From a virus (Duplodnaviria > Heunggongvirae > Uroviricota > Caudoviricetes), in the IMG/VR virus record IMGVR_UViG_2917408641_000002, positions 1 through 44,997 of that record: a stretch of 44,997 nt of DNA. One strand, given 5' to 3'. Position numbers: made by a program. Positions 12,001 to 16,613 of the stretch are shown here, piece after piece; the stretch's first letter is position 1; every line of letters begins with the position of its first letter.

Positions 12001-15000
12001 AAACCGTGGCCTTACCGCGCCTGCCGGGAAGCAGAAGGCGCAGGATGCTGCGAAAAACACGGCGAATACAACACGCATATCCTGGAATGGGACGAGCGAC
12101 ATGGTGAGACAGCCTTAAAAATCTCCCGCTGTCCGGAGTGTCTGGCGGATGAGATTAGCGTGACACATCGGGCGTTAGTGGCGCTGAAAGCCGATGCTCT
12201 GATTGAAAGCGCGGGCATTGCCTTCCGGTTTCGCGACTGTGAGTTTGAAAACTATCTGGAAATTAATCCTGACGCAGCCAGGAATCTTGCAGCCTGCCGC
12301 CGCTACGCGGAGAACTGGGAGGATGTACTGGAAAAAGGTACCAGCCTTGTTATGACCGGCAGCTGCGGTACCGGAAAAAATCATCTGGCTGTGGCAATGG
12401 CAAAACACATCATCCGTCACCACCTTGCCAGTGTGGAGATCACTGATGTGATGCGGCTTACCCGCGCAGTGAAAAACTGCTGGCGGAACGACAGTGAAAA
12501 AACAGCGGATGAGGTCATCGAGCATTATGCGTCACTGGATTTGCTGATCATCGACGAGGTAGGTGTTCAGTTTGGTAGTGCGGCTGAAATGGCAATTCTT
12601 CAGGAAATCATCAATGCGCGTTACGAAAGCGTTTTACCGACAATTTTGATCAGCAACCTTTCTCCGGAAGAGTTGTGGGTGTTCATCAGTCCCCGAATTG
12701 CCGACAGGGTCACGGATGGCGGTCGGAACTGGTTGTCGTTCAACTGGCCAAGTTACCGTGCACATATCGGAGGTGTGGCCGCATGACAACTCCTGTCTGG
12801 CGTAACGATGACCTGGAAGGTGCTGTCATCGGCGCGTTCTTTCTGCGTGGGGCAGATCATGAAGTGATGGGTATTCTGACCACACTGCCAGCGGACGTTT
12901 TTTCTGTACGAGCGTACCGGGATATCTACACAGGCATCTGCCGACAGGCCCGTGTTTCCGGTGTGATTGATCCTGTGCTGTTGTGTAATGAGATGCCGGA
13001 ACTTGCTCCGGTGATTACTGACACCGGGCGCAAAACCTGGGTGAAGTCTTCACTGGAGCACTATGTTGCAGCGTTGCGGCGCAATGCTGCATTGCGCGAT
13101 GCAGAAAAAACACTGAATGAGGCGCTGCAGAAATTACGTGATGCGCATACCTGTGAAGCAGCTGAAGATGCCCTGAAGGATGCGCAGAATATGATGGCCT
13201 CATTGTCGACGGAAAAGGGCGTTATTCAGCCGGTACATATTGATGATGTGCTTCCGGAAGTGGTTGAGCGTGTTGAATGCCGGAATCAGGGACTGGAGAA
13301 ATCCAGGACACTGATGACCGGTATTGATGAACTGGACGCAAAAACAGGCGGCATGGAACCCGGCGACCTGGTATTTATTGCGGCTCGTCCGTCAATGGGC
13401 AAAACCGAACTGGCGCTGGATATCATCGACAAGGTGACTGAACAGGGGCACGGCGTTCTCCTGTTCACAATGGAAATGGCGAACATCCAGATTGGTGAAC
13501 GCATGGTATCTGCGGCTGGAGGAATGCCGGTATCACGTCTTAAGTCTGTTGCCCGTTTTGAAGATGAAGACTGGGCGCGTTTCTCCCAAGGTGTGGGACG
13601 GATGACCGGGCGTAATATCTGGATGGTGGACCAGGCGAACCTGACCATTGACGAGATATGCGCAACAACGAAACACCACCTGATTAAACATCCGGAAACG
13701 GCGCTGGTGGTGGTTGATTATCTCGGACTGATAAAAACCCGAACTATGGGGCGTCATGACCTTGCCGTTGGTGAAATCTCAAAGGGGCTTAAAGGCCTGG
13801 CAAAATCCGGTGGTTTTCCGTTGATTGCGCTGAGTCAGCTTTCCCGTGGTGTGGAGTCCAGGCCCAATAAACGACCTATGAACTCAGACCTGAAAAATTC
13901 CGGAGAAATAGAGGCGGATGCAGACATCATTCTGATGCTTTACAGGGATGAAGTGTACAACCCGGATACGCAGGCCAGGGGTATCGCAGAAATCAATATC
14001 ACGAAACAACGTAACGGTTCTCTGGGGACGATTTACCGGCGTTTTTATAACGGACATTTTCTGCCCGTAGACCAGGAAAGCGCACAGCTTCTTTCCACCC
14101 CAATGCGGCCATCCCAGCCGCGCAGATACAGCAACAAACGAACTGACAGCAGTAAGATGGAGCGTTTCTTTTGAACAACCAGACCATGACTTTTACGCCC
14201 GAACAATTGCGTAAACAGGCACAGGAAATGTTGCGACAGGCGGAACAACTGGAAAAAACAGGTATAACAAAAGATGCCATTCGTCGGGATATGGTTCCAG
14301 CACTCAGGGAACTGATGCAGGCTAAACACCGTGCACAAAAAGCGGTGGATGAGCTGGTGGACTGTGTGGCAGAGCTGGAAATCAAAGTCGGAAAGTTTGA
14401 AAAATTGGTGCAGGAGGTACTGCGCTGATGCTTCATGAGTTTGTTTTGCCTTACCCGCCGACAGTGAACACTTACTGGCGACGTCGTGGCAGCACATATT
14501 TTGTATCAAAAGCCGGTGAGCGTTATCGTCGGGATGTGGCACTTATTGTTCGCCAGCAGCGACTGAAATTAAACCTGTCTGGAAGGCTGGCGATAAAAAT
14601 TATTGCAGAGCCACCGGATAAGCGCCGCCGCGACCTGGACAATATCCTGAAGGCACCACTGGATGCACTGACGCATGCGGGGCTGATTATCGACGACGAG
14701 CAGTTTGATGAAATTAATATTGTGCGTGAGCAGCTCATTATCGCTACCGCTGATTTGAGTGGGGCAACAAAAGGTCAGCTTGAAGCCTGGCAAGAGAATG
14801 TCATGTTCGATACAGGGCGTTACAGGCGAAAAAAAATCCGGTACCGCGATGAAGTGACTGGAAAAATGATAACGCGGGATAATCCACCAATCCCGGGGAA
14901 GCAATCGCTGGCGAAGGGGACGTCAATTCCTCTGGTCAGTCCGGTTGAGTTTTCGACATCATCGTGGCGGCGGGCTGTTCTGTCTCTTGAAGAACATCAT

Positions 15001-16613
15001 AAAGCCTGGTTGTTGTGGTGTTACAGCGGGAGTATTTGTTGGGAATATCAGATCGCGATAACACAGTGGGCGTGGAATGAATTTAATACTCAATCCGGTA
15101 CCAGAAAAATTGCAGGGAAAACGCAGGAACGCCTGAAGAAATTAATCTGGCTAGCGGCGCAGGCAGTAAAAGCAGAACTTTTTGGTGGGGAAGGTTATGA
15201 ATACCAGGATCTGGCATTACTGGCGGGAGTGACAACTAAAAACTGGTCCAAAACATTTACTCGTCACTGGGTTGCAATGAAACACATTTTTCACCGACTG
15301 GATAGTGAGGCTTTATTGTTTGTAATGAGAACACGTTCAAAACAAAAGGCGGCATTTTCAAAGCAAAGTGTTGCAAAAGTAGATTGAAAGGCATATATTT
15401 CATGCAAATCTGATATTTTGCCGATTTTGTACGTGATGGCAAAAGCAAGCACAACCCGCCGCCGAGCGGGTTTTTTATACCCGAAAAAGACACAGAACAT
15501 TAAATGTGATGGCGATTGTGCTATGAGTTTTTCCTGCTATGAAGCTTCTTGACTAAATGGAGCTTCATTTGTTATGCAATGTGTTGTTATGTTTTTTGGG
15601 TTGTTAATGGTGTTGCTATGGATGACAGTACTCTGCTCAGGCACTCTTCACTTTTTGTTGCTTATATGGGCTGTCTTGGGTGGGGGAGCGCTTACTTCTA
15701 TGGCTGGGGAACTTCCTTTTACTATGGTTTCCCATGGTGGGTTGTTGGGGCTGGTGTCGATGATGTGGCCAGGAGCCTTTTTTATGCTGTTACAGTCATT
15801 GTTATATTCCTGATTGGATGGGGAACAGGTGTTTTTTTCTTCCTGGGGATCAAACAAAAAAATAATGTGCAGGATCTGAGTTTTATCAGACTTTTTCTGG
15901 CGATATTGTTGCTTTTTGTTCCGCCTGCTCTGGAGTTTTCAGTAATTCATCGACACGTTGCGCCAGATGCACTGGTTTTATGCGTTATTGCTGCCTTAAT
16001 AATTACGTTTTTTGTCAGGTCAGGAAGAAGACTTATTTCAGTAAAATTTTTTTCGGACATGTCTTTTATTCGCCATCACTGGATTGAGTGTATGATGGCT
16101 GGGTTCATGATCTATTTCTGGGGATTTTCACTTATTGCCGGTTGGTACAAGCCCCAGTTTAAGAATGAATATCAGATGATTCGCTATGAGAGTGTCTGGT
16201 ATTACGTTCTTGCACGCTATGATGATCGGCTGATATTGTCGGAATCGTACAGTAATGGGAGTTCTACATTCGTTATACTTAATAGCGGGCAGATTGATGA
16301 CTTCAAAATTAATGTGGTCAGAGTACGTTAATATTGCCTGAGTAACTTTTTGTTGGCTGCTCATACTTTTTACCATGTATGAAGCAGATACAGGATTGAA
16401 TCAGGTGTGTGGGGGGGTATTGCAGAGCTGAACTGGCATATGTATTATTTCGCGCCCGGCCCTTTAGCTTAGTGGTGAGAGCGAGCGACTCATAATCGCC
16501 AGGTTGCTGGTTCAAATCCAGCAAGGGCCACCAACCGCCACTAGCTCATCAGGAAAGAGCGTCAACCCTTTAAGTTGAGTGTGCGAGGTTCGAGTCCCCG
16601 GTGGCGGTCCAGT

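What the first reader, a model, noticed from the sequence alone, without database searches (positions are those of the whole stretch)
14428..15478. RusA-domain protein with a long C-terminal extension, followed by a PR'/tR'-like late control element
The RusA-like domain occupies only the first ~110 residues of a 319-aa ORF. The rest is unassigned but sits where the Q antiterminator would be. Immediately after it come a near-consensus promoter (TTGCAA-17-TATATT) and an intrinsic terminator, the architecture of lambda PR'-qut-tR'. The ORF may be a natural or decay-generated fusion of rusA with a Q-like gene.
Basis: partly seen in the sequence, partly recalled or inferred. Interest (0 to 1): 0.5.

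Follow-up and report, generated by a model that had tools for sequence, protein, structure and literature searches.

The report
Deletion-made RusA–Q antiterminator fusion gene
An 86-base deletion in an Escherichia marmotae prophage has joined the front of a DNA-repair nuclease gene (rusA) in frame to the phage's late-gene switch (a phage-82-type Q antiterminator), just upstream of an intact late promoter and terminator; this is an ordinary kind of prophage lesion, with the small curiosity that the same deletion arose independently at least three times.

Summary
ORF 14428-15387 (319 aa) holds a RusA domain (residues 8-98) and a nearly complete phage-82-family Q antiterminator (PF06323, residues 95-310, E 5e-90). 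The "unassigned" C-terminus is therefore the Q gene itself.

More than 1000 E. coli genomes and all deposited phages carry separate, overlapping rusA and Q genes. The window lacks 86 bp between 7-9-bp direct repeats (TTGTGCG). That removes the last 21 rusA codons, Q's ribosome-binding site and Q's first 8-9 codons, and joins the two frames.

The same junction occurs on three diverged backgrounds: E. marmotae, E. coli O55:H7 DEC5A, and a third E. coli type. The two E. coli alleles each have an intact sister allele at 99.4-99.9% identity; for the window only the Q half has one (98.9%). The deletion is therefore recurrent.

Downstream lies a conserved phage-82-type late promoter: TTGCAA-17-TATATT, an extended -10-like pause element, GCC at +15-17, U at +25, and an intrinsic terminator at 15453-15478.

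The RusA remnant is probably dead. Whether the Q moiety still works is unresolved; I lean towards impaired. The parts are known, the fusion is rare and clone-limited, and interest is low to moderate.

The parts
14412..14417 (+). Shine-Dalgarno sequence AGGAGG, 10 nt upstream of the fusion ORF's ATG. The ATG overlaps the stop of the upstream ORF (TGATG).
   Evidence: Read directly from the sequence. Upstream ORF 14171-14428 is listed.
14428..14719 (+). rusA remnant, codons 1-97. It keeps the catalytic Asp triad (D69, D71, D90, equal to RusA D70, D72, D91) but lacks the C-terminal ~20 residues.
   Evidence: PF05866 at residues 8-98, profile 1-109 of 124. Ungapped alignment to E. coli RusA 1Q8R, query 4-100 against chain 5-101 of 120. 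Intact relatives are 119-126 aa.
14720..14726 (+). Deletion junction. This is the single retained copy of the direct repeat TTGTGCG; intact alleles have two copies 86 bp apart.
   Evidence: Alignments with intact alleles.
14727..15387 (+). Q82-family antiterminator moiety. It corresponds to residues ~10-229 of the intact 229-aa Q and includes the stop codon. Q's own start codon and GGAG ribosome-binding site are deleted.
   Evidence: PF06323 at 301 bits. 96% identical to the 229-aa Q P0001. 98.9% DNA identity to the intact Q of phage vB_EcoM-606R7.
15371..15399 (+). Late promoter (pR'-type): -35 TTGCAA, 17-nt spacer, -10 TATATT. The -35 lies inside the end of the Q coding sequence.
   Evidence: Scan. 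Conserved in all Q82-type loci aligned.
15406..15431 (+). Predicted initial transcribed region. The start is about 15406. TG lies at +6/+7 and TATTTT at +9 to +14 (an extended -10-like, sigma70-dependent pause element). GCC lies at +15 to +17 and T at +25, the expected pause site.
   Evidence: Sequence. The geometry matches the published description of phage 82 pR' (PMC5001585). TTCATGCAAATCTGATAT is conserved across genera. The start site is inferred, not mapped.
15453..15478 (+). Intrinsic terminator (tR'-type): a 7-bp G+C-rich stem, a 6-nt loop and a T-run. It would end a roughly 70-nt short RNA.
   Evidence: Scan. RNA fold. A hairpin plus T-run is present at the same place in all relatives despite sequence change.

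Best explanation
What is shown: the gene is a deletion product. This phiP27-like mosaic prophage of Escherichia marmotae once carried the usual pair of overlapping genes, rusA (about 120 codons) and a phage-82-family Q (229 codons), overlapping as ATGA. A slipped-strand or microhomology deletion between two copies of TTGTGCG, 86 bp apart, removed three things: the last 21 codons of rusA, Q's ribosome-binding site, and Q's first 8-9 codons. Q lies in the -1 frame relative to rusA and 86 = 3n+2, so the deletion automatically joins the two frames. The same event has happened independently in at least two E. coli lineages.

How the module works, inferred from the family: early rightward transcription expresses the fused ORF from rusA's strong ribosome-binding site. 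The late promoter at 15371-15399 fires constitutively. RNA polymerase pauses near +25 because sigma70 rebinds the extended -10-like element. Without active Q, polymerase stops at the terminator at 15453-15478 and releases a roughly 70-nt RNA. An active Q82-type protein would load at the pause and carry polymerase through this and later terminators into the tRNA, lysis and morphogenesis genes.

Functional state, inferred: the RusA part lacks the last strand of its four-stranded sheet and is most likely inactive (about 0.85). The Q part is nearly whole, with I-N-I-V replacing L-Q-F-V at its start. However, it carries a 95-residue, probably misfolded N-terminal appendage and has lost an aromatic residue that is conserved across the family. 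I judge it more likely impaired or dead (about 0.55-0.6) than fully active, which would leave the prophage poorly able to switch on late genes.
For: - **Domains.** RusA plus PF06323. PF06323 is the Q82 family (PMC9388147).
- **Deletion.** An 86-nt gap relative to APEC O1, SA53-3, phage 606R7, JNEC-KY180 and RM12579, flanked by TTGTGCG(TG) repeats.
- **Separate genes are the norm.** They were seen in every listed hit among 1234-2139 matching E. coli genomes and in every deposited phage hit that covers both domains.
- **The junction is rare.** A junction-spanning 44-mer is found in only 2 of 5426 complete E. coli genomes. No two-domain protein appears among the best 150 hits against 1.84 billion representatives, or among the top hits of 5.8 billion proteins.
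- **Independent origins.** The fused allele L008 differs from intact L020 at 0/292 and 1/644 sites. Fused L012 differs from intact L021 (same serotype, O55:H7) at 0/292 and 4/647. Fused alleles differ from each other at 19-31/292 and 27-67/644, with differences within 5-26 nt of the junction.
- **Not an artefact.** The window allele is present in identical form in the complete genome CP025979.1, in contig KN714377.1 and in an IMG record.
- **RusA.** The enzyme is a four-stranded sheet plus two helices and dimerises through the sheets (PMC1636454). The fusion stops at the equivalent of residue 100-101 of 120.
- **Late control element.** It is conserved and matches the features of phage 82 pR'.
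- **Q N-terminus.** The motif L6, Y/F/W8, V/I9, R10 is conserved in 25 diverse family members.
Against: - Nothing contradicts the deletion origin.
- The functional call is weak. The Q domain is almost complete and the replaced residues are chemically similar. Some natural family members have N-terminal extensions of 3-10 residues. The fused ORF has a good AGGAGG ribosome-binding site.
- The P0126-type fused allele sits in two prophage variants that differ by 0.35% and by a downstream module, so it has persisted for some time.
- AlphaFold models were too poor at the junction to help: pLDDT was 33-59 there.
- For the window allele itself, the closest intact allele found is 98.9% identical in Q but only about 88-93% in the rusA part. 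Its independent origin therefore rests mainly on its divergence from the other fused alleles.
Confidence: 0.85

Rival explanations
1. The fusion protein is a fully functional Q82-type antiterminator that merely carries an inert N-terminal RusA fragment. On this reading the deletion is neutral for the phage, and the allele recurs because it is one of the few microhomology deletions in this region that a viable phage can tolerate.
For: - The Q domain is complete from family position 6 onward, with I-N-I-V-R replacing L-Q-F-V-R.
- Natural N-terminal extensions exist in the family.
- The fused ORF has a strong ribosome-binding site and is translationally coupled to the upstream ORF.
- About 20 other direct repeats of 7 nt or more exist in the region, some longer. 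Yet only the 86-bp junction was seen in 5426 genomes.
- The P0126-type allele persists in two diverged prophage variants.
Against: - The fused allele is rare and clone-limited: 2 of about 1200 genomes that carry this rusA-Q type. It is absent from all deposited phage genomes, from IMG/VR apart from this same strain, and from metagenomes.
- An aromatic residue conserved in 25 of 25 family members is lost.
- The RusA fragment lacks a core strand and may misfold.
- The host prophages show other decay: IS66 and IS3 insertions here, and pseudogenes in DEC5A.
- The comparison with alternative deletions has almost no statistical power, because it rests on one event among complete genomes.
Confidence: 0.35
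2. A single ancient deletion was spread among prophages by recombination, rather than arising by recurrent independent deletions.
For: Lambdoid prophages are highly mosaic, and the junction is identical in all three types.
Against: - Each E. coli fused allele is essentially identical, on both sides of the junction, to an intact allele (0/292 with 1/644 differences, and 0/292 with 4/647). The fused alleles differ from one another by 5-10%.
- Differences between fused alleles begin 5 nt to the left and 20-26 nt to the right of the junction. Recombination tracts carrying only the junction would therefore have to be under about 30 nt, and this would have to have happened three times.
Confidence: 0.05
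3. The fusion is a sequencing or assembly artefact of the source genome.
For: Single-genome frameshifts and small deletions are common artefacts.
Against: - Identical DNA occurs in the complete genome CP025979.1, in contig KN714377.1 of a separate assembly record and in an IMG record. I could not check whether these come from independent sequencing data.
- The same junction occurs in six other E. coli assemblies and in one SRA-derived assembly.
- The deletion is 86 bp between direct repeats, not a homopolymer error.
Confidence: 0.02
4. RusA-Q is a selected, bifunctional natural architecture, for example one that couples junction resolution or DNA binding to late transcription.
For: The fusion is in frame in all three lineages, and the catalytic Asp residues of RusA are retained.
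Against: - The in-frame outcome is forced by the geometry: an 86-nt deletion across a -1 overlap.
- No RusA+Q representative exists among 1.84 billion cluster representatives. The longer RusA or Q proteins examined are not RusA+Q.
- The RusA domain is truncated rather than linked intact.
Confidence: 0.03

Closest known systems
Phage 82 Q antiterminator with its late promoter 82 pR' (Q82 family, PF06323)
   Same: - The Q moiety matches PF06323 end to end, and the two-gene tblastn match to the phage 82 rus-Q record X92588 averages 65% identity.
- The gene sits directly upstream of the late promoter.
- The promoter-proximal region has an extended -10-like element, GCC at +15 to +17 and U at +25, as described for 82 pR' (PMC5001585), followed by an intrinsic terminator.
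   Different: - Here Q has no start codon or ribosome-binding site of its own. Its first 8-9 residues are replaced by 99 residues of RusA.
- In phage 82 a small orf45 (ylcG) separates rus from Q. In this clade rusA and Q overlap directly.
- Activity was not tested.
RusA Holliday-junction resolvase (E. coli DLP12 RusA, PDB 1Q8R/2H8C; phage 82 Rus)
   Same: The N-terminal 100 residues align without gaps to RusA residues 5-101 (E 1e-18). They keep D70, D72, D91, K76 and the arginine-rich loop.
   Different: The last ~20 residues are missing. They are conserved in all 119-126-aa relatives as G-x-x-V-P-G-G-R-L-G-I-K-I and belong to the four-stranded sheet that forms the dimer interface (PMC1636454). 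Resolvase activity is therefore unlikely.
Intact rusA-Q modules of Escherichia phage vB_EcoM-606R7, PPompW phages and E. coli APEC O1
   Same: - 98.9% (606R7) and 95.6% (APEC O1) DNA identity in Q.
- APEC O1 is 100% identical across the promoter-terminator segment.
- The same downstream TfpB-like gene and tRNA cluster follow.
   Different: They carry the extra 86 bp and so have two separate genes.
Same-junction fusions in E. coli O55:H7 DEC5A / FDAARGOS_946 and in the P0126-type E. coli assemblies
   Same: The deletion endpoints are identical and the fusion ORF is in frame (311-312 aa).
   Different: - Backgrounds differ by 5-10% and the prophage contexts are different, with DUF968 upstream instead of a phiP27 L20-like gene.
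- The origins are independent.
- NCBI's pipeline annotates them as a rusA pseudogene plus Q.
Lambda Q / PR'-qut-tR' and Gifsy-1 AntQ-IsrK
   Same: - The logic is the same: a constitutive late promoter, a sigma-dependent proximal pause, a nearby terminator that yields a short RNA, and a Q gene immediately upstream.
- Gifsy-1 AntQ is a Q82-family protein (65% identity), and IsrK is the short RNA just downstream of it (PMC4825925).
   Different: - Lambda Q belongs to another, unrelated family (PF03589) and pauses at +16/17.
- The isrK Rfam match here is below threshold (22.8 bits against 50), and the DNA does not align with Gifsy-1.

Membership tests
RusA endodeoxyribonuclease (PF05866) | Profile match above Pfam's gathering score | tested here: met
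   56.3 bits against a cut-off of 22.8, residues 8-98. PHROG 34 at E 1.5e-48.
RusA endodeoxyribonuclease (PF05866) | Catalytic aspartates D70, D72 and D91 | tested here: met
   The ungapped alignment to 1Q8R places D69, D71 and D90 at these positions. Residue roles are from PMC1636454.
RusA endodeoxyribonuclease (PF05866) | Complete ~120-residue fold (four-stranded sheet plus two helices) able to dimerise through the sheets | tested here: not met
   Only profile positions 1-109 of 124 are present. The alignment to the 120-residue RusA ends at residue 101. The conserved C-terminal G-G-R-L-G-I-K-I segment of relatives is deleted.
RusA endodeoxyribonuclease (PF05866) | Holliday-junction cleavage, or suppression of ruv mutants | not testable with these tools
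   Needs a biochemical or genetic assay.
Q82-family antiterminator (PF06323) | Profile match above the gathering score over the whole domain | tested here: met
   301.3 bits against a cut-off of 25, profile 2-217 of 220. PF06323 is the Q82 family according to PMC9388147.
Q82-family antiterminator (PF06323) | Native N-terminus with the conserved motif M-x-x-Q-x-L-[EQ]-[YFW]-[VI]-R, and its own translation start | tested here: not met
   Only V-R survives. L, Q/E and the aromatic residue are replaced by I, N and I from RusA. The start codon and GGAG are deleted.
Q82-family antiterminator (PF06323) | Gene placed immediately upstream of a late promoter with a sigma70-dependent proximal pause element and a terminator | tested here: met
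   The -35 lies within the last codons of the ORF. TG-n-TATTTT, GCC and T are at +6 to +25. The terminator is at 15453-15478. All are conserved across Q82-type loci, and the feature list is from PMC5001585. The transcription start is inferred.
Q82-family antiterminator (PF06323) | Terminator read-through activity at its cognate pR' | not testable with these tools
   Needs in-vitro transcription or a reporter assay.
Lambda-type Q (PF03589) / Q21-type Q (PF06530) | Profile match to either family | tested here: not met
   Neither family appears in the Pfam scan at E <= 0.1. No sequence match to solved Q-lambda or Q21 chains.
IsrK sRNA (Rfam RF01394) | Covariance-model score at or above the gathering score | tested here: not met
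   22.8 bits against a gathering score of 50, at 15404-15476. No DNA alignment with the Gifsy-1 region.

The most novel reading that the evidence does not exclude
The 86-bp deletion recurs because selection lets it through, not only because of the short repeat. On this reading, of the roughly 20 comparable microhomology deletions possible in rusA-Q, it is the one that keeps a working Q82 antiterminator. It swaps L-Q-F-V for the look-alike I-N-I-V and places Q under rusA's translation signals. The fusion would then be a viable, re-wired late switch, and it would be natural evidence that the Q82 N-terminus tolerates a 95-residue appendage. That bears on whether Q82 uses a closed-nozzle mechanism like Q21 and Q-lambda.
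Probability: 0.25. Interest if true: 0.45.

Novelty: new variant of a known kind. Interest (0 to 1): 0.28.

Why it matters
The practical value is mainly in annotation. GenBank names this protein "RusA family crossover junction endodeoxyribonuclease", which hides the prophage's only Q gene. RefSeq splits the E. coli equivalents into a rusA pseudogene and a Q called from an odd start.

Biologically it is a clean example of convergent, microhomology-mediated gene fusion at overlapping phage genes. It is also a possible route by which prophages become locked in. Overexpressed Q82-family proteins such as Gifsy-1 AntQ are toxic to the host (PMC4825925), so attenuating Q may be tolerated or even favoured.

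If the fusion proved active, it would give a natural N-terminally extended Q82. That is of some interest because the Q82 family has no solved structure and its mechanism is an open question (PMC9388147). None of this changes current understanding of late-gene control.

Tried and rejected
- **AlphaFold2 of the fusion.** Built from 8 Q and 31 RusA sequences, it gave mean pLDDT 57 and below 50 across the RusA part and the junction. It is uninformative on whether the remnant folds.
- **AlphaFold2 of the intact Q (101 sequences).** Mean pLDDT was 72. The N-terminal 90 residues scored about 40-70, so the role of helix 3-17 is unclear.
- **First combined alignment.** It misaligned the RusA sequences and was discarded. 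I tested subsets offline to find one that aligns properly.
- **Hairpin in the deleted segment.** I looked for a DNA hairpin that might bring the repeats together. There is none (z -0.3 to +0.6 against shuffles).
- **Uniqueness of the repeat.** TTGTGCG is not the longest or closest repeat in the region: 19-25 others of 7 nt or more exist. I searched complete E. coli genomes for three alternative predicted junctions (131, 257 and 219 bp) and found none, but this test has very little power.
- **Exact-junction scans.** GTDB species representatives and JGI metagenomes gave nothing. IMG/VR returned only the window's own strain.
- **P0024 (209 aa, 'MES...' N-terminus).** It looked like another N-terminal Q variant but lies at a contig end, so it is an artefact.
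- **IsrK homology.** It is sub-threshold, and the Gifsy-1 DNA does not align. I kept it only as a positional analogy.
- **Foldseek of the Q model against the PDB.** No hit reached E <= 0.001.
- **Literature search.** I found no paper describing a rusA-Q fusion.
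Full report
**The observation**

ORF 14428-15387 on the + strand is open for 319 codons. Pfam finds two domains. RusA (PF05866) covers residues 8-98 (56.3 bits) but only profile positions 1-109 of 124. Phage_antiter_Q (PF06323) covers residues 95-310, profile 2-217 of 220, at 301 bits and E 5.4e-90. PHROGs agrees: phrog_304 'anti-termination protein Q-like' at E 1.6e-104, and phrog_34 'RusA-like' at E 1.5e-48.

The 'unassigned' C-terminal two thirds is therefore the Q gene itself. PF06323 is the phage 82 (Q82) family, one of three unrelated Q families (PMC9388147). 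No member has a solved structure by sequence search of the PDB. The only PDB relatives of the ORF are E. coli RusA chains, which align without gaps as query 4-100 to RusA 5-101 of 120.

The exact protein is AUT26155.1 of Escherichia marmotae. It is encoded on CP025979.1 (4.67 Mb) and on contig KN714377.1, and GenBank names it 'RusA family crossover junction endodeoxyribonuclease'. CP025979 is one of the genomes reported in PMC6650469.

**How the fusion arose**

In E. coli, 1234-2139 of 5426 complete genomes carry close relatives of this DNA. In every listed hit the match is split into two pieces, annotated as separate RusA and Q genes. Every deposited phage hit that covers both domains is likewise split into two pieces; these include phage 82 (65% identity), vB_EcoM-606R7 and the PPompW phages.

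Alignment with E. coli APEC O1 and SA53-3 shows a single 86-nt gap in the window. In intact alleles, rusA (119-121 codons) ends in TGA, which overlaps the ATG of Q (229 codons) as ATGA. The deleted segment runs from just after '...AATATTGTGCG' in rusA to '...CAGTTTGTGCG' in Q. It is bounded by a direct repeat: TTGTGCG in most alleles, and TTGTGCGTG in strain JNEC-KY180. One copy remains, at window 14720-14726.

The deletion removes the last 21 codons of rusA, Q's GGAG ribosome-binding site and ATG, and Q codons 1-8/9. Q is in the -1 frame relative to rusA and 86 = 3x28+2, so the frames are joined automatically. No selection is needed to explain why the product is in frame.

**The same deletion is recurrent**

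The 90%-identity cluster that holds the window protein also holds a 311-aa protein, P0126, with the identical junction ...DEINIV|REQL.... It is encoded in three E. coli assemblies and in one SRA-derived assembly.

A 44-nt query centred on the junction finds the junction in just two complete E. coli genomes, O55:H7 DEC5A and FDAARGOS_946. Their loci are 100% identical over 12 kb. NCBI's pipeline annotates them as a rusA pseudogene plus a Q called from a non-canonical start.

There are thus three sequence types with one junction. Pairwise comparison gives:

| Comparison | Differences left of junction | Differences right of junction |
|---|---|---|
| P0126-type fused vs intact JNEC-KY180 | 0/292 | 1/644 |
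| DEC5A fused vs intact O55:H7 RM12579 | 0/292 | 4/647 |
| Window fused vs intact phage 606R7 | 36/292 | 7/668 |
| Fused alleles vs each other | 19-31/292 | 27-67/644 |

Differences between fused alleles start 5 nt to the left and 20-26 nt to the right of the junction. Searches identified the intact sister alleles.

A single origin would require recombination tracts of under about 30 nt, three times over. Independent recurrence is far more parsimonious. For the window allele the case is a little weaker, because no intact allele that is close on both sides was found. That is unsurprising, since few E. marmotae genomes are available.

The fused allele is otherwise absent. It is not in any deposited phage, in GTDB species representatives or in JGI metagenomes. 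The one IMG/VR hit is the same strain, 100% identical over 10,290 bp. No RusA+Q protein appears among the best 150 hits in the search of 1.84 billion cluster representatives. The few longer hits that I checked are a tandem RusA, RusA with unassigned extensions, or Q with a C-terminal extension.

**What remains of each half**

*RusA.* The catalytic triad is present as D69, D71 and D90, equivalent to D70, D72 and D91. RusA is a four-stranded mixed sheet flanked by two helices, and it dimerises through the sheets (PMC1636454). The fusion ends at the equivalent of residue 100-101 and loses the conserved ...G-x-x-V-P-G-G-R-L-G-I-K-I... tail found in all 119-126-aa relatives. I infer loss of the last strand and of resolvase function.

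*Q.* An alignment of 25 diverse family members, down to about 30% identity, shows a conserved N-terminal motif: M-x-x-Q-x-L-[EQ]-[YFW]-[VI]-R. In the fusion V-R is retained, and L-Q-F is replaced by the RusA residues I-N-I. These are chemically similar, which is a side effect of the DNA microhomology, but the conserved aromatic residue is lost. A few natural members have extra N-terminal residues (3-10).

*Translation.* Q can no longer start on its own. The in-frame GTG at 14722 has no Shine-Dalgarno sequence. The fused ORF has AGGAGG 10 nt upstream of its ATG, which overlaps the stop of the preceding ORF as TGATG.

*Structure models.* AlphaFold2 gave no usable answer at the junction. The fusion model had mean pLDDT 57 and below 50 through residues 47-135. 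The intact Q model had pLDDT 72, with a low-confidence helix at residues 3-17 and a confident C-terminal domain at 88-226.

**The late control element**

- **Promoter.** TTGCAA (15371-15376), a 17-nt spacer, then TATATT (15394-15399).
- **Terminator.** A 7-bp stem, a 6-nt loop and a T-run at 15453-15478.
- **Significance.** Consensus scans alone are not significant: 7 promoter-like sites against 6.1 expected, and 5 terminator-like sites against 3.1.
- **Conservation.** The block TTGCAAAA...GCATATATTTCATGCAAATCTGATAT is nearly invariant in E. coli prophages, phage 434, and Enterobacter and Klebsiella phages with Q82-family genes. All have a hairpin plus T-run 45-75 nt further on, although its sequence differs.
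- **Geometry.** Taking the start as A15406, 7 nt after the -10, the transcript carries TG at +6/+7, TATTTT at +9 to +14, GCC at +15 to +17 and T at +25.
- **Match to phage 82.** This is the published description of phage 82 pR': an extended -10-like pause-inducing element, a GCC 'discriminator' at +15-17, and a pause at +25/+26 with U at +25 (PMC5001585).

The element is therefore a phage-82-type pR'/pause/tR' module, analogous to lambda PR'-qut-tR' but not the same. The start site, the pause and the Q-binding site are inferred, not mapped. The predicted roughly 70-nt terminated RNA folds into a leader hairpin plus the terminator, which is not unusual relative to shuffles (z -1.55).

**Context**

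The prophage is a phiP27-like mosaic:

- integrase at 1-1314 and the repressor region near 6.4-7.7 kb;
- Ash/Rha-type, DnaC-like and DnaB-like genes;
- a phiP27 L20-like ORF at 14171-14428;
- the fusion, then a TfpB-like membrane protein at 15549-16331;
- four tRNAs at 16458-16767;
- an IS66-family (ISCro1-like) insertion;
- holin, endolysin, HNH and terminase genes, followed by a long run of large ORFs to the end of the window that I did not annotate.

phiP27 itself has a different, 126-aa Q-like gene at this position, so the rusA-Q82 module was acquired by recombination. Similarity to E. coli rusA begins at about codon 4. No other Q-family domain was found in the ORFs scanned with Pfam.

**Function: what is shown and what is inferred**

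Shown: the domain content, the deletion and its repeats, its recurrence, the conservation of the cis element, and the loss of Q's own translation signals.

Inferred: (i) RusA is inactive. (ii) Q is made only as a 36-kDa fusion. (iii) Its activity is uncertain.

Arguments for impairment are a bulky, probably unfolded N-terminal appendage, loss of the conserved aromatic residue, the rarity and clone-limited distribution of fused alleles, and other decay in the host prophages.

Arguments for retained activity are the near-complete domain, the conservative substitutions, the good ribosome-binding site, and the persistence of the P0126-type allele in two prophage variants that differ by 26 substitutions in 9.6 kb and by a downstream module.

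One observation hints at a selective filter but cannot establish one. The TTGTGCG pair is only one of 19-25 direct repeats of 7 nt or more within 300 nt in intact alleles. Some are longer, and one (GGTCAGCT(CG), spacing 131) would also fuse the frames. Yet only the 86-bp junction was found when I searched 5426 genomes for four predicted junctions. That sample contains a single event, and my discovery of the other fused alleles was biased towards this junction. There is no hairpin in the deleted segment that would favour slippage.

I put about 0.55-0.6 on impaired or dead Q and about 0.35 on functional Q.

**Comparison and verdict**

The closest known systems are:

- phage 82 Q with 82 pR';
- RusA of DLP12 and phage 82;
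- the intact rusA-Q modules of 606R7, PPompW and APEC O1;
- Gifsy-1 AntQ with IsrK, as a positional analogue only.

The protein matches both Pfam domains, but it fails one defining feature of each family: a complete RusA fold, and a native Q N-terminus with its own start. It is therefore best filed as a deletion-derived chimera of two known genes, not as a new family.

I found no paper describing it. Its novelty is modest: a recurrent, convergent fusion at an overlapping gene pair. Its main practical consequence is correct annotation of the prophage's only late-gene activator.

Noticed in passing
window 17263-19970 (approximate ends); ORFs 17313-18884, 18904-19251 and 19251-19928 on the - strand: An IS66-family (ISCro1-like) element with tnpA, tnpB and transposase genes is inserted in the late-operon leader. 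It lies between the tRNA cluster and the TerB-like and holin/endolysin genes, so Q-modified polymerase would have to cross it antisense. The flanking near-repeat GGTTTAAAT...CCTTAATT sits 2707 bp apart.
   Followed up: partly
window 15404-15476 (+): A sub-threshold Rfam match to isrK (RF01394; 22.8 bits against a gathering score of 50; the full model 1-77 is aligned) coincides exactly with the predicted promoter-to-terminator short RNA. IsrK is the short RNA just downstream of Gifsy-1 AntQ, a Q82-family protein (PMC4825925). The Gifsy-1 DNA does not align, so this is only a positional analogy.
   Followed up: partly
P0001, the intact 229-aa Q closest to window 14727-15387 (model m7b2fc586e69e): The top Foldseek PDB hits of the AlphaFold model are the AlpA chains of the AlpA-loading and AlpA-loaded antitermination complexes (7xya_G, 7xyb_G): E 0.39-0.81, probability 0.91/0.77, TM 0.42-0.44 on the target, 128-129 columns. 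This is not significant. It is still notable that the best match to a Q82-family model is another antiterminator.
   Followed up: no
window 16458-16767 (+): A cluster of four tRNA genes (Met-CAT, Lys-TTT, Thr-TGT, Gly-TCC) lies in the late leader downstream of Q, as in related prophages. APEC O1 has Ile/Lys/Thr/Gly at the same place.
   Followed up: no
window 5341-6355: An IS3-type transposase ORF (rve, rve_2 and rve_3 domains at 5630-6355) lies next to the HTH/repressor genes at 6369-7692. It is probably a second IS insertion in the prophage.
   Followed up: no
intact rusA-Q alleles L014, L020, L021 and L001 (equivalent to window 14428-15387): There are 19-25 direct repeats of 7 nt or more within 300 nt of each other. 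They include an 11-nt pair (AATCCGGTACC, spacing 257) and an 8-10-nt pair (GGTCAGCT(CG), spacing 131) that would also fuse rusA to Q in frame. None of three such alternative junctions occurs in 5426 complete E. coli genomes.
   Followed up: partly
L012 5723-6661 (E. coli O55:H7 DEC5A) and L013: NCBI's pipeline splits the equivalent fusion into a 'RusA ... missing C-terminus' pseudogene and a 217-aa Q. The Q start is placed at an ATC/ATT codon inside the rusA remnant. GenBank names the E. marmotae protein simply RusA. The annotations of one and the same lesion are therefore inconsistent.
   Followed up: yes
window 14420-14440; compare L007 6158 (phiP27): This is a mosaic joint. The phiP27 L20-like ORF (14171-14428) abuts rusA with a TGATG overlap, and similarity to E. 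coli rusA begins only at about codon 4 (MLHE here, MRIE in E. coli). phiP27 has a different, 126-aa Q-like gene at this position.
   Followed up: partly
P0099 (ENA contig, 505 aa): This is a Q82-family protein (PF06323 at residues 4-219) with an unassigned C-terminal extension of about 280 residues. It occurs on a single 3-kb metagenomic contig and is possibly a read-through or another fusion.
   Followed up: no
window 17038-17064 (+) and 17087-17111 (-): Two further terminator-like hairpins with T-runs lie back to back between the tRNA cluster and the IS66 element.
   Followed up: no
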